50,890 nt of DNA, from NCBI GenBank assembly GCA_017463445.1, contig JAFTPF010000137.1, positions 1 to 50,890 on the forward strand, read 5' to 3'. The position numbers and the translations under genes are program-made. The notes below the pieces were generated by a model. It saw only the letters and a program-made list of their open reading frames with translations. It ran no database searches and was not told where the DNA came from. Positions 8,588 through 40,170 of this stretch are shown here, in pieces. Numbering within the stretch: the stretch's first letter is position 1; each line of letters opens with the position of its first letter. This stretch comes from Clostridia bacterium (GTDB taxonomy: Bacteria > Bacillota > Clostridia > Oscillospirales > CAG-272).

Positions 8588-9745
8588 TCACTCCAGACTC
8601 AGAATATACTGCATAGCGATTCTGCCGGAGAAGCCTGAGTGGCGGACGCTGAAGGTGCGGGCACCGTCCAACAGCTCCTTCCGATCCATTTCGATACCGT
8701 GGAGGCGGGCGAGATGGAGTACCATTTCGAAGTATTCGTCCTGGGCGGGCTTGCCGAAGCGGACCTGCAGACCAAAGCGGTCGGAGAGCGAGATCTTCTC
8801 CTGGATGGACTCATCCCGATGGATATCGCCGCCGCCCTCGCGGTCGTTGAAGGTCTCCTTGATCAGGTGACGGCGGTTGGAGGTGGCAAAGATCAGCATA
8901 TTGGCAGGGCGCTCCTCCAGTCCGCCCTCGATGGCGGCCTTCAGGTACTTGTACTCGATCTCGAAGTCCTCGAAGGAGAGGTCGTCCATGTAGATAGCGA
9001 AGTTGTAATTTCTGCGGCGGATAGTATCGATGACCTTTGACAGATGAACGAACTGGTACTTTTGCACCTGAATCATGCGGAGACCGTCGGGATAATAGCG
9101 GTTGAGAAGCGCTTTGATGCAGGTGGATTTGCCGGTACCGGCGTCGCCGTAGAGAAGCATATTGTTGGCTCCCCGCCCTTCCAGAAAGGCGACGGTGTTG
9201 GAGATCACCTGCTCCTTTTGCAGGTCGTAGCCCCACAGGTCGTCAAATGTGACCTTACGGAAGTGGGAAACGGGCGTGATCTCGCCTACTTCAGTGAGAT
9301 AGAAGGCGCGGTGGAGTCCGAACTCGCCCACGCCGTAGCGGGCGTAGTAGGTGAGGACGGTTTCGAAGAAGCCCTCCTTCCCTGCCGAGCGCAGGTCGTC
9401 GGCAAGTGCGGCGGCTATGGCACCCACCTGGCTGTCGGCATCCTCGGCGGTGTCCATAGGAATAAAGTCAAGGCCATAGGGGGCTGAAAGATCGAAGAAG
9501 AGGTCAGCGAGAGAGGCAAGATCGGCTCTCGCGAATACGGCAAGGCTGCCGACGGTGTCGGCGGTCACGGTCGTCCGCTCACAGGCGAGGGAGAAGGGGT
9601 TCTCGTCGAAAAGCAGGAGCCACGCAATCGTAGACTGGCGGACGGGTCCCGCCATCCGATAGCGTTGGCAGAGCGCCAGCAGATCGCTGAGGCGATCCGG
9701 GGAGGTAAGATAGGTATATTCGGGATTCTTTCCGTAGAGGATCAT
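8588..9745 (-). CDS. DUF815-type AAA+ ATPase
   Basis: Walker A GDAGTGKS, YMDDLSFE, FATSNRRHLIKE, EKISLSDRFG. Confidence 0.88.
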   Translation of the reverse strand: MILYGKNPEYTYLTSPDRLSDLLALCQRYRMAGPVRQSTIAWLLLFDENPFSLACERTTVTADTVGSLAVFARADLASLADLFFDLSAPYGLDFIPMDTAEDADSQVGAIAAALADDLRSAGKEGFFETVLTYYARYGVGEFGLHRAFYLTEVGEITPVSHFRKVTFDDLWGYDLQKEQVISNTVAFLEGRGANNMLLYGDAGTGKSTCIKALLNRYYPDGLRMIQVQKYQFVHLSKVIDTIRRRNYNFAIYMDDLSFEDFEIEYKYLKAAIEGGLEERPANMLIFATSNRRHLIKETFNDREGGGDIHRDESIQEKISLSDRFGLQVRFGKPAQDEYFEMVLHLARLHGIEMDRKELLDGARTFSVRHSGFSGRIAMQYILSLE

Positions 9746-9788
9746 GGGGCTTTCCTTTCGGTTTTATGAGAAATACCGCCCGCAGGGG

Positions 9789-9817
9789 TTGACAAACAGG
9801 GGACGGTGATGTATAAT
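9789..9817 (+). promoter_or_regulatory. Consensus sigmaA promoter of the antitoxin RNA
   Basis: TTGACA-17 bp-TATAAT with no convincing protein-coding gene downstream. Confidence 0.8.
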
Positions 9818-9823
9818 GTAGTT

Positions 9824-9912
9824 ACAGGGAGCGCACCGGCGACGGTCTGCTTCCAAGACTTGACGAAATAAACCGCTAAGTTTGGGAGACTATGGGCGGT
9901 TTATTTCTTTTT
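9824..9912 (+). ncRNA. Putative type I antitoxin sRNA (about 90 nt), antisense to the toxin 3' end
   Basis: Consensus promoter upstream; terminator hairpin GAAATAAACCGC...GCGGTTTATTTC plus TTTTT at 9865-9912, overlapping the toxin stop codon; start position is approximate. Confidence 0.7.
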
Positions 9913-10002
9913 GTTGTTACGGTTGGTGATCGAGACGATCAGATCAATCAGAGCCAGTACGAAAGCCCCGAGCAGCATCAGCTGTTCGAAGGTTATGTAC
10001 AT
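9901..10002 (-). CDS. Type I toxin-like hydrophobic peptide, 33 aa (MYITFEQLMLLGAFVLALIDLIVSITNRNNKKK)
   Basis: GGAGGTGAT RBS, single TM helix with Lys tail, own consensus promoter; below the ORF-track size cutoff. Confidence 0.8.
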   Translation of the reverse strand: MYITFEQLMLLGAFVLALIDLIVSITNRNNKKK

Positions 10003-10105
10003 AGGCATCACCTCCCTCGAATCTCGAAGGAGTTTCAAAATGACGCTCCTTGGCAAAGATCACGAAGAAAGCATACCGCCACCGTTTGGGTGCGCTCCGT
10101 GGGGT

Positions 10106-10134
10106 ATTATAGCACAGAATCTCCCCCTTGTCAA
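10106..10134 (-). promoter_or_regulatory. sigmaA promoter of the toxin mRNA
   Basis: Minus strand reads TTGACA-17 bp-TATAAT with a TG extended -10. Confidence 0.8.
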
Positions 10135-10144
10135 GAAAATTCAC

Positions 10145-10182
10145 AAAATTCCCTTGTCAAGGGGATTTTTCTGTGCTATAAT
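10145..10182 (+). promoter_or_regulatory. Promoter of the metal regulator/suf operon with an overlapping 25-bp palindrome
   Basis: TTGTCA-17 bp-TATAAT; palindrome AAAATTCCCTTG-T-CAAGGGGATTTT at 10145-10169. Confidence 0.6.
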
Positions 10183-10240
10183 ATAAAGAATGATAGTGCA
10201 AACTATCGCCGAAATCACATCTCAAGGAGTGTCTAACCGT

Positions 10241-10621
10241 ATGAAGCTGTATGAATCCGGCGAAGATTATCTTGAAGCCATCCTGCGCCTTTCCCGAACC
10301 GGGGTCTCCGTGCGGAGCGTGGACGTTGCCGCGGAGCTGGGCTTCTCGAAACCCAGTGTCAGCGTTGCCATGAAACATCTTCGTGCGGGTGGACTGGTAG
10401 TCACCGAAGCAGACGGCAGTCTGAAGCTGACGCCCGAGGGGCTTGCCATCGCCGAGCGGGTCTGGGAACGCCACAGCGTCCTCACTTCCCTCTTTGCCCG
10501 TCTGGGCGTATCCCCCGAGGTGGCAAGAGCCGACGCCTGCAAGATCGAGCACGATCTATCCGAAGAGACTTTTGAAAAGATCAAGGCTTTCGTTGCCACC
10601 ATGGAACAGGCGACAGACTAA
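10241..10621 (+). CDS. DtxR/MntR family metal-dependent transcriptional regulator
   Basis: SGEDYLEAI, VRSVDVA..LGFSKPSVS, DACKIEHDLS; AAGGAG RBS. Confidence 0.92.
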   Translation: MKLYESGEDYLEAILRLSRTGVSVRSVDVAAELGFSKPSVSVAMKHLRAGGLVVTEADGSLKLTPEGLAIAERVWERHSVLTSLFARLGVSPEVARADACKIEHDLSEETFEKIKAFVATMEQATD

Positions 10622-10662
10622 CCGCCCCGCTAAAATCATTGAATAACAAAAGGATATAGAGT

Positions 10663-11394
10663 ATGCTGGAATTCCAAAATGTTTCCTTCGCCGCAGGAGA
10701 TGCCGAGATCCTGCGGAACGTGAGCTTTTCGGTGGACGAGCGGTTCGTTGCGATCACGGGACCCAACGGAAGCGGTAAGTCTACCATTGCCAAGCTGATC
10801 GCAGGTATTTACACCCCCACGTCGGGCAGGATCCTGCTGGACGGCGTGGACATCACCGAGCTTTCTATCACCGAACGCGCGCGGATGGGCGTCTCCTTTG
10901 CCTTCCAACAGCCGGTTCGCTTCAAGGGACTGACCGTCAAGGATCTGATCTCCCTGGCGGCAGGCACCGAGAACGGCAAGAAGATCTCCGCCGCCGCTGC
11001 CTGCGCCTACCTCTCCGAGGTGGGGCTTTGCGCCCGCGAGTACATCGACCGCGAGGTGAACGCTTCCCTGTCAGGCGGCGAGCTCAAACGCATCGAGATC
11101 GCCATGACCATGGCGAGAGGCAGTAAGTTGACCGTATTTGACGAGCCCGAGGCAGGCATCGACCTGTGGTCCTTCAACAACTTGATTGACGTCTTCCGCA
11201 AAATGTACGAGAAGACCAAGGGTAGTATCATCATCATCTCCCACCAGGAGCGCATTCTCGACATCGCCGACAAGATCATCGTGGTCTCGGGCGGCGAGAT
11301 CGCCGCGATAGGTGAGAAGAGCGAGATCCTCCCCGAACTACTGAAGGGTAGCGGCGGTTGCCGCTTCACCGCACCCCGAAAGGAGGAGGCATAA
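10663..11394 (+). CDS. sufC: SufC-like ABC ATPase (Fe-S assembly)
   Basis: Walker A GPNGSGKS, signature LSGGELKRIEIA, DEPEAGIDLWS; next to a SufB/D gene. Confidence 0.8.
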   Translation: MLEFQNVSFAAGDAEILRNVSFSVDERFVAITGPNGSGKSTIAKLIAGIYTPTSGRILLDGVDITELSITERARMGVSFAFQQPVRFKGLTVKDLISLAAGTENGKKISAAAACAYLSEVGLCAREYIDREVNASLSGGELKRIEIAMTMARGSKLTVFDEPEAGIDLWSFNNLIDVFRKMYEKTKGSIIIISHQERILDIADKIIVVSGGEIAAIGEKSEILPELLKGSGGCRFTAPRKEEA

Positions 11395-33115: not shown

Positions 33116-33146
33116 AAAAAACGACAGGCCAAAACCTGTCGTTTTT
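33116..33146 (-). terminator. Terminator after tRNA-Thr
   Basis: AAAAACGACAGG-CCAAAA-CCTGTCGTTTTT. Confidence 0.7.
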
Positions 33147-33221
33147 GGAGCTAATGGCGGGACTCGAACCCGCGACCTGCTGATTACGAATCAGCTGCTC
33201 TACCAACTGAGCCACATTAGC
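33146..33221 (-). tRNA. tRNA-Thr (anticodon CGT)
   Basis: 76-nt cloverleaf GCTAATG...CTGATT-CGT-AATCAG...GGTTCGAGTCC...CATTAGCTCCA with encoded CCA. Confidence 0.97.
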
Positions 33222-33350
33222 ATATGAGGAGTGATGAACGAAACTATTATAGCACATCAAATTCCGTTTGTCAAGTTTTTTTCGCAGAGTGATTGCTTTT
33301 TTTTCGAGAATATGTTACAATTGTATCATCCTACATTTCTGCGAGGTTTT

Positions 33351-39926: not shown

Positions 39927-40170
39927 AATTATCCTCCTGATTTGTTTTCGGCCGTCTCTTAGCGACCGTATGCGCTTTTATTATAACATATCGTTCACAA
40001 TTTGTCAATTGCAAGAAGCGCAATTTTTTCAAAATCCACCTTTTACGCCGCCAAAATTTCGCGCCGTTTTTTGTACATTTTCTATAAGCAAATTCAATTT
40101 TCACCGACTTTTATCCAATTATTACGGACACCAACAGAACCGAGGCGATTGCCTCGGTTCCGGTGCTTTT

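What the first reader, a model, noticed from the sequence alone, without database searches (positions are those of the whole stretch)
9789..10134. Unannotated, complete type I toxin-antitoxin module
Seen: a 33-aa ORF on the minus strand (10002-9901; MYITFEQLMLLGAFVLALIDLIVSITNRNNKKK) with a GGAGGTGAT RBS and a TTGACA-17-TATAAT promoter. A second consensus promoter on the plus strand (9789-9817) would drive a roughly 90-nt RNA ending in a hairpin and U run that overlap the toxin stop codon. Established: single-TM peptides with basic tails and 3'-overlapping antisense RNAs are the architecture of Firmicutes type I TA systems such as TxpA/RatA and BsrG/SR4. The peptide is absent from the supplied ORF track.
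Basis: partly seen in the sequence, partly recalled or inferred. Interest (0 to 1): 0.75.

Follow-up and report, generated by a model that had tools for sequence, protein, structure and literature searches.

The report
Type I toxin-antitoxin module, BsrG/SR4-like
A 33-residue membrane-toxin gene and the small antisense RNA that should silence it lie between a housekeeping gene and its promoter; the pair looks real, but it belongs to a known kind of toxin-antitoxin system that is widespread and mostly unannotated in Clostridia.

Summary
The 33-aa ORF (10002..9901, -), its GGAGGTGAT ribosome site and two convergent 12/12 consensus promoters are present. Only 4 perfect promoters occur in the 50.9-kb window, against 0 in 100 shuffles.

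The reading as a type I toxin-antitoxin module is supported by comparison:
- The peptide, both promoters and a ~95-nt two-hairpin antisense RNA recur together in 18 of 150 other genomes of the same family.
- A strict 3'-end motif recurs in an estimated ~840 stretches of public Bacillota genomes.
- Stems covary, codon third positions vary most, and the ribosome site is predicted to be buried.

The peptide is weakly like Hol_Tox and S. aureus PepG1.

The RNA layout matches B. subtilis bsrG/SR4. The toxin leader pairs with a 3' segment (helix P1) that is the complement of the antitoxin's 5' hairpin. So the toxin mRNA probably runs ~330 nt to a second, weak terminator, and the antitoxin lies wholly inside it.

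Neither Rfam BsrG nor RatA detects this copy.

In this genome the module sits inside the leader of a DUF815 ATPase gene; relatives lack it at that site.

Expression and toxicity are untested. Verdict: a new member of a known kind, of moderate interest.

The parts
10106..10134 (-). Toxin promoter, TTGACA-17-TGcTATAAT (12/12, extended -10). The same promoter directly precedes the DUF815 gene in relatives without the module.
   Evidence: empty sites in G017 and G012
9768..10099 (-). Predicted full toxin mRNA (~330 nt). Both ends are inferred, not mapped.
   Evidence: fold of 10099..9766: -122.2 kcal/mol, z -5.74; bsrG mRNA is 296 nt with the same layout
10067..10098 (-). Leader element, 5' strand of the long-range helix P1 (GGAGCGCACC..ACGGUGGCGGU..GCUUUC). 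A same-sense look-alike of the antitoxin's 5' hairpin.
10024..10032 (-). Local anti-SD CUCCUUCGA, which pairs with the ribosome site in the fold of the long transcript.
10007..10015 (-). Shine-Dalgarno GGAGGUGAU, predicted to be paired.
   Evidence: probability unpaired 0.001 against 0.266 with shuffled leaders
9901..10002 (-). Toxin ORF of 33 aa plus stop; predicted single helix with an NKKK tail.
9865..9907 (.). Hairpin holding the stop codon in its toxin-strand 5' arm. On the + strand it is the antitoxin terminator (U run 9908-9918). On the - strand it is the counterpart of bsrG SL3.
9789..9817 (+). Antitoxin promoter, TTGACA-17-TATAAT (12/12).
   Evidence: 12/12 in 73 of 123 related copies
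9824..9916 (+). Predicted antitoxin RNA, about 95 nt with two hairpins.
9827..9854 (+). Antitoxin 5' hairpin (GGGAGCG/UGCUUCC, ACCG/CGGU, loop GCGA). Its complement on the - strand is the 3' strand of toxin helix P1.
9768..9806 (-). Weak hairpin (9806..9776, -7.7 kcal/mol) plus UAUUUCUC. Candidate toxin-mRNA terminator (SL4 counterpart), 23 nt before the DUF815 start codon.

Best explanation
This is a chromosomal type I toxin-antitoxin module of the BsrG/SR4 - SprG/SprF - TxpA/RatA group.

The minus strand encodes a 33-aa single-helix membrane peptide with a lysine tail. A strong promoter drives its mRNA, which is kept poorly translatable because the ribosome site is base-paired.

A convergent strong promoter makes a ~95-nt antisense RNA with two hairpins. 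Its terminator hairpin is complementary to the hairpin that holds the toxin stop codon. Its 5' hairpin is complementary to the segment just behind that hairpin.

The toxin transcript most likely reads through the stop-codon hairpin, so that this segment pairs with the toxin's own leader (helix P1). It would then end about 125 nt after the stop at a weak terminator.

By analogy with bsrG/SR4, the proposed sequence of events is:
1. The antitoxin first touches the toxin RNA loop to loop at the terminator hairpin.
2. It then invades the 3' strand of P1.
3. The resulting ~95-bp duplex is cut by RNase III.
4. The displaced leader, which carries a longer anti-SD (GGUAUGCUUUCUUCG), clamps the ribosome site more tightly.
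5. If the unstable antitoxin is lost, the peptide is made and damages the membrane.

Shown here by computation: the elements themselves, their conservation, the covariation, and the predicted pairings. Inferred: the transcript ends, the order of binding, RNase III action and toxicity.
For: Elements present and non-random:
-.

Coding:
- Among 4 same-length copies, differences by codon position are 16/12/49.
- AlphaFold predicts a helix over residues 5-32, pLDDT 91.
- Pfam Hol_Tox scores 22.6 bits (cut-off 23.3) for the window. It matches 11 of 21 family peptides at E<=0.01.
- NCBIfam PepG1 matches 7 of 21.
- A profile of the 21 peptides aligns end to end with the 31-residue PDB chain 7ns1_A, E 0.0019.
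- A same-genus paralogue hits annotated pepG1 genes at 48.6% identity, E about 1-5.

Antisense RNA:
- A covariance model built from 11 copies finds it in 18 of 150 other genomes of the family.
- 25 of 39 matches have an intact hydrophobic ORF opposite (24 by script, stop in a fixed register; one by tblastn).
- 96.1% of pair cells are paired, 6 pairs have double changes, and 0 of 500 shuffles reach this.
- The antitoxin promoter is 12/12 in 73 of 123 copies.
- UUGG occurs in 64 of 117 antisense terminator loops, against 1 of 117 on the other strand.

Buried ribosome site:
- Mean probability unpaired is 0.072, against 0.281 with shuffled leaders. It is lower than the shuffles in 59 of 62 modules.

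Helix P1:
- The leader and the antitoxin 5' end are same-sense look-alikes that change together from module to module. Cognate score is 31.9 against 19.0, and the cognate ranks first in 22 of 43 (also 10 of 19).
- Of 194 mismatches, 122 would still give G-U pairs with the complement of the antitoxin, 18 are the reverse transitions and 54 are transversions. The bias remains outside the conserved core.
- Leader x 3'-segment duplex energy is -45.0 kcal/mol for cognates against -29.2 for non-cognates, with 0 of 20000 permutations as low. The window scores -49.9.
- The 334-nt fold forms P1.
- A toxin-strand terminator lies 95-200 nt after the stop in 70 of 144 modules, against 7 of 144 shuffled.

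Precedent:
- bsrG mRNA pairs nt 1-35 with nt 232-262 and has its stop codon in the 5' part of SL3.
- SR4's terminator loop contacts L3 and then the 3' arm of P1. The SD duplex grows from 4 to 8 bp (PMC3834814, abstract and sections 13 and 19).
- Loci sharing the same 3' motif match Rfam BsrG at 58-126 bits.
Against: - No expression data could be obtained.
- Toxicity is untested, and some relatives of such peptides are not toxic when overproduced (YhzE-2 in PMC2887945).
- The window peptide is 0.7 bits below Pfam's Hol_Tox cut-off and far below NCBIfam's PepG1 cut-off of 70.
- Rfam BsrG, RatA and rli28 do not match the window at E<=10, nor 9 related loci at E<=0.1.
- Profile comparison with BsrG-class peptides is weak: probability 33% over 11 columns.
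- 14 of 39 RNA copies and 43 of 124 lack an intact toxin ORF by my script. The RNA therefore often outlives the toxin, or the script misses starts.
- The window's toxin-strand terminator is weak (-7.7 kcal/mol) and falls below the threshold used.
- The G-U bias would also arise if the leader merely folds as a wobble-rich copy of the antitoxin hairpin.
- Related genomes are not independent samples, so the permutation and shuffle figures overstate significance.
Confidence: 0.82

Rival explanations
1. The ORF encodes a small membrane protein with a physiological rather than lethal role, for example a regulator like ComI. Its level is tuned by an antisense RNA, so the architecture is that of a type I system but without addiction or killing.
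For: - NCBIfam's ComI model (competence inhibitor) matches 3 of 21 family peptides and 2 of 7 BsrG-class peptides.
- Fozo et al. found no toxicity for YhzE-2 in its own host (PMC2887945, passages).
- The module is single-copy in this genome and sits among housekeeping genes.
Against: - The closest characterised peptides by the matches obtained here are toxins. PepG1 is annotated as a type I toxin. BsrG is described as the toxin of a type I system (PMC3834814).
- The module is multi-copy, occurs in tandem and varies in presence among relatives, as selfish modules do.
- Heavy burial of the ribosome site plus a consensus antitoxin promoter suggests that expression must be prevented, not tuned.
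Confidence: 0.1
2. In this genome the module has been co-opted as a leader cassette that gates transcription of the downstream DUF815 ATPase gene. The gating would come from read-through of two hairpins against a convergent promoter, and the toxin would be incidental.
For: - In G017 and G012 the same promoter lies about 55 nt before the DUF815 start. In G000 the ~345-bp module is inserted between them. G009 and G003 carry two tandem modules there.
- No promoter-like site was found on the minus strand between the toxin stop and the DUF815 start.
- The candidate toxin terminator is weak.
Against: - The same module occurs in many unrelated contexts and as tandem arrays, so it is an autonomous unit.
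- The toxin ORF is intact and under purifying selection.
- A weak DUF815 promoter below the scan's threshold cannot be excluded.
Confidence: 0.06
3. It is a chance ORF between two unrelated promoters, or a miniature mobile element whose terminal inverted repeats merely resemble RNA elements.
For: - The unit is bounded by an inverted repeat (the leader and the complement of the antitoxin 5' hairpin).
- It is an insertion/deletion polymorphism and is multi-copy.
Against: - Third-codon-position bias is seen.
- The ORF register opposite the RNA is conserved.
- Stems covary.
- Mismatches between the repeat arms are biased towards G-U-compatible transitions, which points to selection on RNA.
- No target-site duplication was recognisable at the filled versus empty sites.
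- No transposase is nearby.
Confidence: 0.02

Closest known systems
bsrG/SR4 of Bacillus subtilis prophage SPbeta (Rfam BsrG RF01412; Jahn & Brantl 2013, PMC3834814)
   Same: - A convergent antisense RNA whose terminator hairpin is complementary to the toxin-mRNA hairpin holding the stop codon.
- A long 5'-3' helix P1 in the toxin mRNA, whose 3' strand is covered by the antitoxin.
- The ribosome site lies in a duplex.
- A small hydrophobic peptide ending in KKK.
- Loci with the identical KKK-stop/terminator nucleotide motif score 58-126 bits with RF01412.
   Different: - RF01412 does not match the window or 9 related Clostridia loci.
- The antitoxin here is about 95 nt with 2 hairpins and lies wholly inside the toxin transcript. 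SR4 is 183 nt with 4 stem-loops.
- The YUNR-type UUGG sits in the antitoxin loop here, but in loop 3 of the toxin RNA in bsrG.
- Peptide profiles are only weakly alike.
sprG1/SprF1 of Staphylococcus aureus (toxin PepG1, NCBIfam NF041589; PDB 7ns1)
   Same: - Best peptide resemblance. The family profile aligns over all 31 residues of 7ns1_A (E 0.0019), and 7 of 21 peptides match NF041589.
- The SD-to-start stretch GGAGGUGNUGCCUAUG is alike.
- The antisense RNA overlaps the 3' end.
- The S. aureus toxin leader and antitoxin also share a same-sense stretch. The score of 39 was reached by 2 of 2000 shuffles.
   Different: - Scores are far below the equivalog cut-off (22.9 against 70).
- In S. aureus the toxin mRNA matches Rfam rli28 (94.6 bits) and the antitoxin matches RatA (46 bits, gathering score 49). 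The window matches neither.
- sprG1 encodes two peptides from two in-frame starts (PMC10579593, abstract in the search listing). Only one start with a ribosome site is evident here.
txpA/RatA of B. subtilis and the wider TxpA or 'holin-like toxin' family (Pfam Hol_Tox PF16935; Fozo et al. 2010)
   Same: - Gram-positive type I layout with the antisense RNA on the 3' side overlapping the end of the ORF (PMC8594479, passages).
- Fozo et al. already reported TxpA-like ORFs in Clostridiales, with a few annotated as holin-like toxins.
- Hol_Tox matches 11 of 21 family peptides.
   Different: - The window peptide is just under the Pfam gathering score.
- There is no RatA match.
fst/RNAII (par) of Enterococcus faecalis pAD1
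   Same: Convergent transcription towards a shared hairpin, and a 33-aa membrane peptide.
   Different: - In par the 5' repeats make the two RNAs complementary at their 5' ends (PMC3834814, section 19).
- Here the 5' ends are same-sense. The reverse-complement control is 17.2 for cognates against 15.3 for non-cognates.
- Direct leader-antitoxin duplexes show no cognate advantage: -26.6 against -26.9 kcal/mol.
- No Fst family match was found.

Membership tests
Type I toxin-antitoxin system (generic) | Small (<60 aa) hydrophobic peptide gene with its own promoter and ribosome site | tested here: met
Type I toxin-antitoxin system (generic) | Antisense RNA gene with base complementarity to the toxin mRNA | tested here: met
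   Promoter, two covarying hairpins and a U run are conserved in relatives. Transcription itself has not been observed.
Type I toxin-antitoxin system (generic) | Peptide is toxic when overproduced, and the RNA prevents this | not testable with these tools
   Needs expression experiments.
bsrG/SR4 | Toxin mRNA matches Rfam RF01412 at or above 55 bits | tested here: not met
   No match for the window at E<=10 or for L001 at E<=0.1. Loci L101, L125 and L094, which share the 3' motif, do match.
bsrG/SR4 | Long 5'-3' helix P1 whose 3' strand is complementary to the antitoxin | tested here: met
   Predicted fold; module-by-module co-variation and G-U bias.
bsrG/SR4 | Stop codon in the 5' arm of the hairpin that pairs with the antitoxin terminator; ribosome site in a duplex | tested here: met
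   compared with PMC3834814 section 13
bsrG/SR4 | Peptide homologous to BsrG-class peptides | tested here: inconclusive
   hhalign probability 33%, E 4.5e-4, 11 columns. No BsrG peptide sequence from B. subtilis itself was available from a tool.
sprG/SprF (PepG1, NCBIfam NF041589) | Score at or above the equivalog cut-off (70 bits) | tested here: not met
   22.9 bits
sprG/SprF and txpA/RatA | Antitoxin matches Rfam RatA RF01776 | tested here: not met
   No match at E<=10. The S. aureus locus gives 46 bits.
Pfam Hol_Tox PF16935 | Score at or above the gathering score (23.3 bits) | tested here: not met
   22.6 bits, E 9.3e-5. 11 of 21 relatives match at E<=0.01, best 1.2e-6.
fst/RNAII (par) | 5' repeats that make toxin and antitoxin RNAs complementary at their 5' ends | tested here: not met
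   The 5' ends are same-sense, not complementary.

The most novel reading that the evidence does not exclude
The module is more than a passenger. It was inserted between the DUF815 ATPase gene and its only recognisable promoter. DUF815 expression would then require transcription through the toxin gene, two hairpins and a head-on consensus promoter. The toxin-antitoxin pair would thus act as an RNA and transcription gate on a conserved housekeeping gene. Copy number at this site is 0, 1 or 2 among species of the genus.
Probability: 0.12. Interest if true: 0.55.

Novelty: new member of a known kind. Interest (0 to 1): 0.4.

Why it matters
- Small toxin genes and their RNA partners are routinely missed in genome annotation. 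The window's peptide, and the 6 of 9 relatives' peptides that are in the protein collection, carry no name there. No Rfam model sees either RNA of this copy.
- One strict 3'-end motif marks an estimated ~840 stretches across species-representative genomes. These are labelled Oscillospiraceae, Ruminococcaceae, Acutalibacteraceae, Lachnospiraceae, Sporomusa, Selenomonas and Cohnella.
- A covariance model for this minimal antitoxin, together with the rule that the leader is complementary to the segment behind the stop-codon hairpin, would allow systematic annotation.
- The comparative data give independent sequence-level support, from dozens of diverged modules, for the P1 helix that was mapped biochemically only in B. 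subtilis bsrG.
- Locally, the insertion may alter expression of the DUF815 gene.

Tried and rejected
- RNA evidence: the look-up of sequencing runs (kind rna) listed no RNA holder.
- Earlier notes of this scan: nothing was returned by place or by sequence.
- Window peptide against plasmids and phages by tblastn: no match at E<=1. A 40-aa paralogue (P0004) was needed to reach the S. aureus pepG1 genes.
- The search for related loci on genome contigs failed twice for technical reasons. The alignment had no conserved 7-10-column stretch and the peptide was too short.
- par-like pairing between the 5' ends of toxin and antitoxin RNAs: rejected. Duplex energies show no cognate advantage (-26.6 against -26.9 kcal/mol; 14119 of 20000 permutations as low), and the similarity is same-sense.
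- Ideas considered for the look-alike 5' ends before reading the bsrG structure: invertible segment, terminal repeats of a mobile element, gene conversion, shared protein or ribosome binding, and a trans-acting anti-SD mimic. P1 pairing explains the data more simply. The similarity stops at the transcribed part, because the promoter spacers are unrelated. The others are not formally excluded.
- Profile comparison of the peptide family with BsrG-class peptides: too weak to decide.
- The search of protein representatives, the search for homologous proteins, fold search and complex prediction were not used. The peptide is below the 40-residue minimum of the search for homologous proteins, and the other three would not have changed the reading.
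- Six RNA-model matches (L029, L033 x2, L036, L039, L047, L050 among them) gave no ORF in my script and were not inspected by eye.
- The taxon of the window's genome was not determined.
Full report
**Observation**

- The minus strand carries ATG (10002..10000) to TAA (9903..9901), encoding MYITFEQLMLLGAFVLALIDLIVSITNRNNKKK. GGAGGTGAT lies at 10015..10007.
- The consensus scan found three promoter-like sites in 9400-10700, against 0.7 expected. Two are perfect: TTGACA-17-TATAAT at 10134..10106 (-) and at 9789..9817 (+). The third, 11 of 12, at 10154..10182 (+), serves the divergent DtxR/MntR-like gene.
- The perfect pattern occurs only four times in the 50,890-base window and never in 100 shuffles. 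The other two copies precede a tRNA gene and a signal-peptide gene.
- An RNA started near 9824 folds into a 5' hairpin and a 13-bp hairpin followed by a U run that covers the toxin's last codons and stop. Free energy is -38.2 kcal/mol and z is -5.2.

**Is the ORF a gene?**

- In relatives the peptide is conserved as a protein.
- Among four 33-codon copies, differences fall 16, 12 and 49 times on codon positions 1, 2 and 3.
- AlphaFold2, given the 21-sequence alignment A3, predicts one helix over residues 5-32, mean pLDDT 91.
- Pfam Hol_Tox matches at 22.6 bits, 0.7 bits below its cut-off. NCBIfam's PepG1 model matches at 22.9 bits against a cut-off of 70.
- Of 21 family peptides, 11 match Hol_Tox, 7 match PepG1 and 3 match ComI at E<=0.01.
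- A profile of the 21 peptides aligns over the whole 31-residue PDB chain 7ns1_A at E 0.0019.
- The window peptide itself found nothing in the phage and plasmid collections. A 40-aa paralogue from the same genus hit S. aureus phage and plasmid genes annotated as pepG1 or holin-like toxin, at 48.6% identity and E of 1 to 5.
- The exact peptide is in the public protein collection without a name.

**Is the antisense RNA a gene?**

No Rfam family matches the region at E<=10, apart from chance microRNA-type hits on the palindromic divergent promoter.

BLASTN of the intergenic region against 40 relatives gave matches in 13 of them.
- The part that belongs to the module matched in five of 19 same-genus genomes: G003, G008, G009, G014 and G019. 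It was often present in several copies or in tandem.
- It also matched once more in the window's own genome.

I aligned 11 copies of the antisense region (A1) and built a covariance model (R1).
- R1 found the RNA in 18 of 150 other genomes of the same family. With G000 that is 18 of 97 genera.
- Re-searching the fetched loci gave 39 good matches.
- Opposite 25 of these lies a 26-45-aa hydrophobic ORF with a ribosome site. In the 24 found by script its stop codon lies exactly 15 nt inside the 3' end of the model; the 25th was located by tblastn.
- Fourteen had no such ORF by my script. Some are frameshifted or truncated, and six were not inspected by eye.
- On the 41-row model alignment, 96.1% of pair cells are paired and six pairs show changes on both sides. 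All five measures exceed 500 of 500 shuffles, and slid controls give 31-55% paired. That alignment is fitted to the model, which favours the structure.
- In 24 modules both promoters keep near-consensus hexamers while the spacers differ.

**Breadth**

A pattern built from the shared 3' end has 24 specified bases covering the lysine codons, the stop and the antitoxin terminator.
- The records are labelled Oscillospiraceae, Ruminococcaceae, Acutalibacteraceae, Lachnospiraceae, Clostridia, Sporomusa, Anaerospora, Selenomonas, Cohnella and others.
- Of the 124 matches, 81 have an intact hydrophobic ORF with a ribosome site in the lysine-tail frame, and 43 do not.
- The antitoxin promoter is 12 of 12 in 73 of 123 cases and at least 10 of 12 in 105.
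- R1 matched 100 of these loci 132 times at E<=0.01. Part of each score is by construction, because the loci were chosen by the terminator.
- The antisense terminator loop contains UUGG in 64 of 117 parsed loops. The opposite strand has it in 1 of 117.

**The unexpected feature and its explanation**

The first ~30 nt of the toxin mRNA and of the antisense RNA are alike in the same sense. For the window these are GGAGCGCACC..ACGGU..GCUUUC and GGAGCGCACCGGCGACGGUCUGCUUCC. They change together from module to module.
- Cognate alignment scores were 30.5 against 19.3 in 19 modules from the first set.
- They were 31.9 against 19.0 in 43 modules from the independent pattern set, with the cognate ranked first in 22 of 43. 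No permutation out of 20000 reached the observed sum in either set.
- The two RNAs are not complementary there. The reverse-complement control gave 17.2 against 15.3, and direct duplex energies show no cognate advantage. A par-like 5' interaction is therefore rejected.
- Of 194 mismatches between cognate pairs, 122 put G or U in the toxin leader where the antitoxin has A or C. 18 are the reverse transitions and 54 are transversions. The bias holds outside the conserved core: 17 against 2, and 19 against 6.

This is what is expected if the leader pairs, as RNA, with the complement of the antitoxin's 5' hairpin. That complement is the toxin-strand segment just behind the stop-codon hairpin.

The published structure of B. 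subtilis bsrG mRNA has exactly this layout (PMC3834814, sections 13 and 19 read).
- Nucleotides 1-35 pair with 232-262 in helix P1.
- The stop codon lies in the 5' part of SL3.
- A separate terminator SL4 follows.
- SR4 covers SL3, the 3' half of P1 and SL4.

The same layout is predicted here.
- The 334-nt window transcript 10099..9766 folds with P1, with the ribosome site paired to a local CUCCUUCGA, and with a terminal hairpin plus UAUUUCUC. Free energy is -122.2 kcal/mol and z is -5.74.
- Leader x 3'-segment duplexes average -45.0 kcal/mol for cognates against -29.2 for non-cognates. The cognate is the best partner in 29 of 62 modules and in the top three in 50 of 62. The window scores -49.9.
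- A terminator-like hairpin on the toxin strand ends 95-200 nt after the stop in 70 of 144 modules, against 7 of 144 shuffled. The window's own hairpin is -7.7 kcal/mol, just under my threshold, and is not among the 70.
- The S. aureus sprG1/SprF1 locus shows the same kind of same-sense stretch. Its score of 39 was reached by 2 of 2000 shuffles.

**Family placement**

- Loci that share the 3' motif and come from a Bacillota metagenome genome, Cohnella and Sporomusa match Rfam BsrG at 125.8, 87.2, 68.3 and 58.3 bits, against a gathering score of 55.
- The window and eight other Clostridia loci do not match at E<=0.1.
- In the S. aureus locus the toxin mRNA matches rli28 (94.6 bits) and the antitoxin matches RatA (46 bits, gathering score 49). 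The window matches neither.
- Profile comparison of the 21 peptides with seven BsrG-class peptides is weak: probability 33%.
- Fozo et al. [quoted passage not shown] - This module is therefore a diverged member of that group. Its RNA architecture is closest to bsrG/SR4, and its peptide is closest to PepG1.

**Mechanism**

Shown by computation:
- The ribosome site is buried. The probability that it is unpaired is 0.001 in the window and 0.072 on average over 62 modules, against 0.281 with shuffled leaders. It is lower than the shuffles in 59 of 62 modules.
- In the transcript cut at the stop-codon hairpin, the leader's GGUAUGCUUUCUUCG pairs with the ribosome site over 15 positions.
- In the long transcript the leader is held in P1 and a 9-bp local hairpin covers the site.

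Inferred by analogy with SR4 (abstract and section 19 of PMC3834814):
- The antitoxin's terminator loop contacts the toxin's stop-codon loop.
- Pairing spreads into the 3' strand of P1.
- RNase III cuts the duplex.
- The released leader strengthens the block on the ribosome site. In bsrG the SD duplex grows from 4 to 8 bp.
- SprF1 is reported to bind ribosomes through a purine-rich 5' end (PMC8158120, passages). The antitoxin here begins ACAGGGAGCG, but I did not test whether that matters.

**Context**

- The neighbours are ThrE-type exporter genes, a DUF815 AAA ATPase gene (9745..8588, -), a DtxR/MntR-like repressor gene and SufC/SufBD genes.
- In G017 and G012 the promoter that drives the toxin here lies about 55 nt before the DUF815 start codon, with no module between.
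- G015 has an unrelated 274-bp insert at that position. G009 and G003 have two tandem modules there.
- The module is thus a ~345-bp presence/absence polymorphism (about 9762-10105) inside the DUF815 leader.
- No other promoter-like site was found before DUF815.
- The genome holds one further promoter-less antitoxin remnant, with the last toxin codons, on another contig directly after a gene's stop codon.

**Limits**

- No RNA run was listed, so expression is unproven.
- Toxicity is inferred from family resemblance only.
- Related genomes are not independent, so shuffle and permutation counts overstate significance.
- The G-U bias could also arise if the leader simply folds as a wobble-rich copy of the antitoxin hairpin.
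- ORF calls in relatives come from my own simple script.

**Verdict**

This is a new member of a known kind, with a clean comparative confirmation of the bsrG-type P1 helix and an unusual insertion site.

Noticed in passing
window 10105-10185: The divergent promoter region between the toxin/DUF815 promoter and the DtxR/MntR-like gene is itself a near-palindrome. Two TGcTATAAT boxes face outward, and two copies of CCCTTGTCAAG(GG) supply both -35 boxes (79 nt, 76% self-complementary). It may be an operator for the adjacent metal repressor. It also explains the spurious microRNA-type Rfam hits.
   Followed up: partly
G000 contig C138:4794-4884 (L018 1511-1601, - strand): A second copy of the antitoxin RNA in the same genome (88.6 bits with R1). 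It has no recognisable promoter and only the last few toxin codons opposite. It lies directly after the stop codon of a membrane-protein gene, so it may now serve as that gene's terminator.
   Followed up: partly
window 8588-9745 (-) and loci L006, L007, L008: The DUF815 AAA ATPase gene has lost its short leader to the inserted module. At the same site G015 carries an unrelated 274-bp insert, so this leader seems to be a hot spot for insertions.
   Followed up: partly
L052-L171 (public genome records): About a third of the antitoxin-type RNA copies (43 of 124) have no intact toxin ORF opposite by my script. Even so, 27 of 42 of them keep an 11-12/12 promoter. Orphan antitoxins may be maintained, perhaps to neutralise incoming modules.
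   Followed up: partly
L101, L139, L094, L148, L162 and others: BsrG-class peptides from these loci match NCBIfam's ComI (competence inhibitor) model (2 of 7, best E 1.3e-8). This suggests that ComI belongs to the same peptide superfamily.
   Followed up: no
window 33145-33274 (-) and 39940-40008 (-): The only other perfect TTGACA-17-TATAAT promoters in the window precede a tRNA gene with a strong terminator and a gene for a signal-peptide protein.
   Followed up: no
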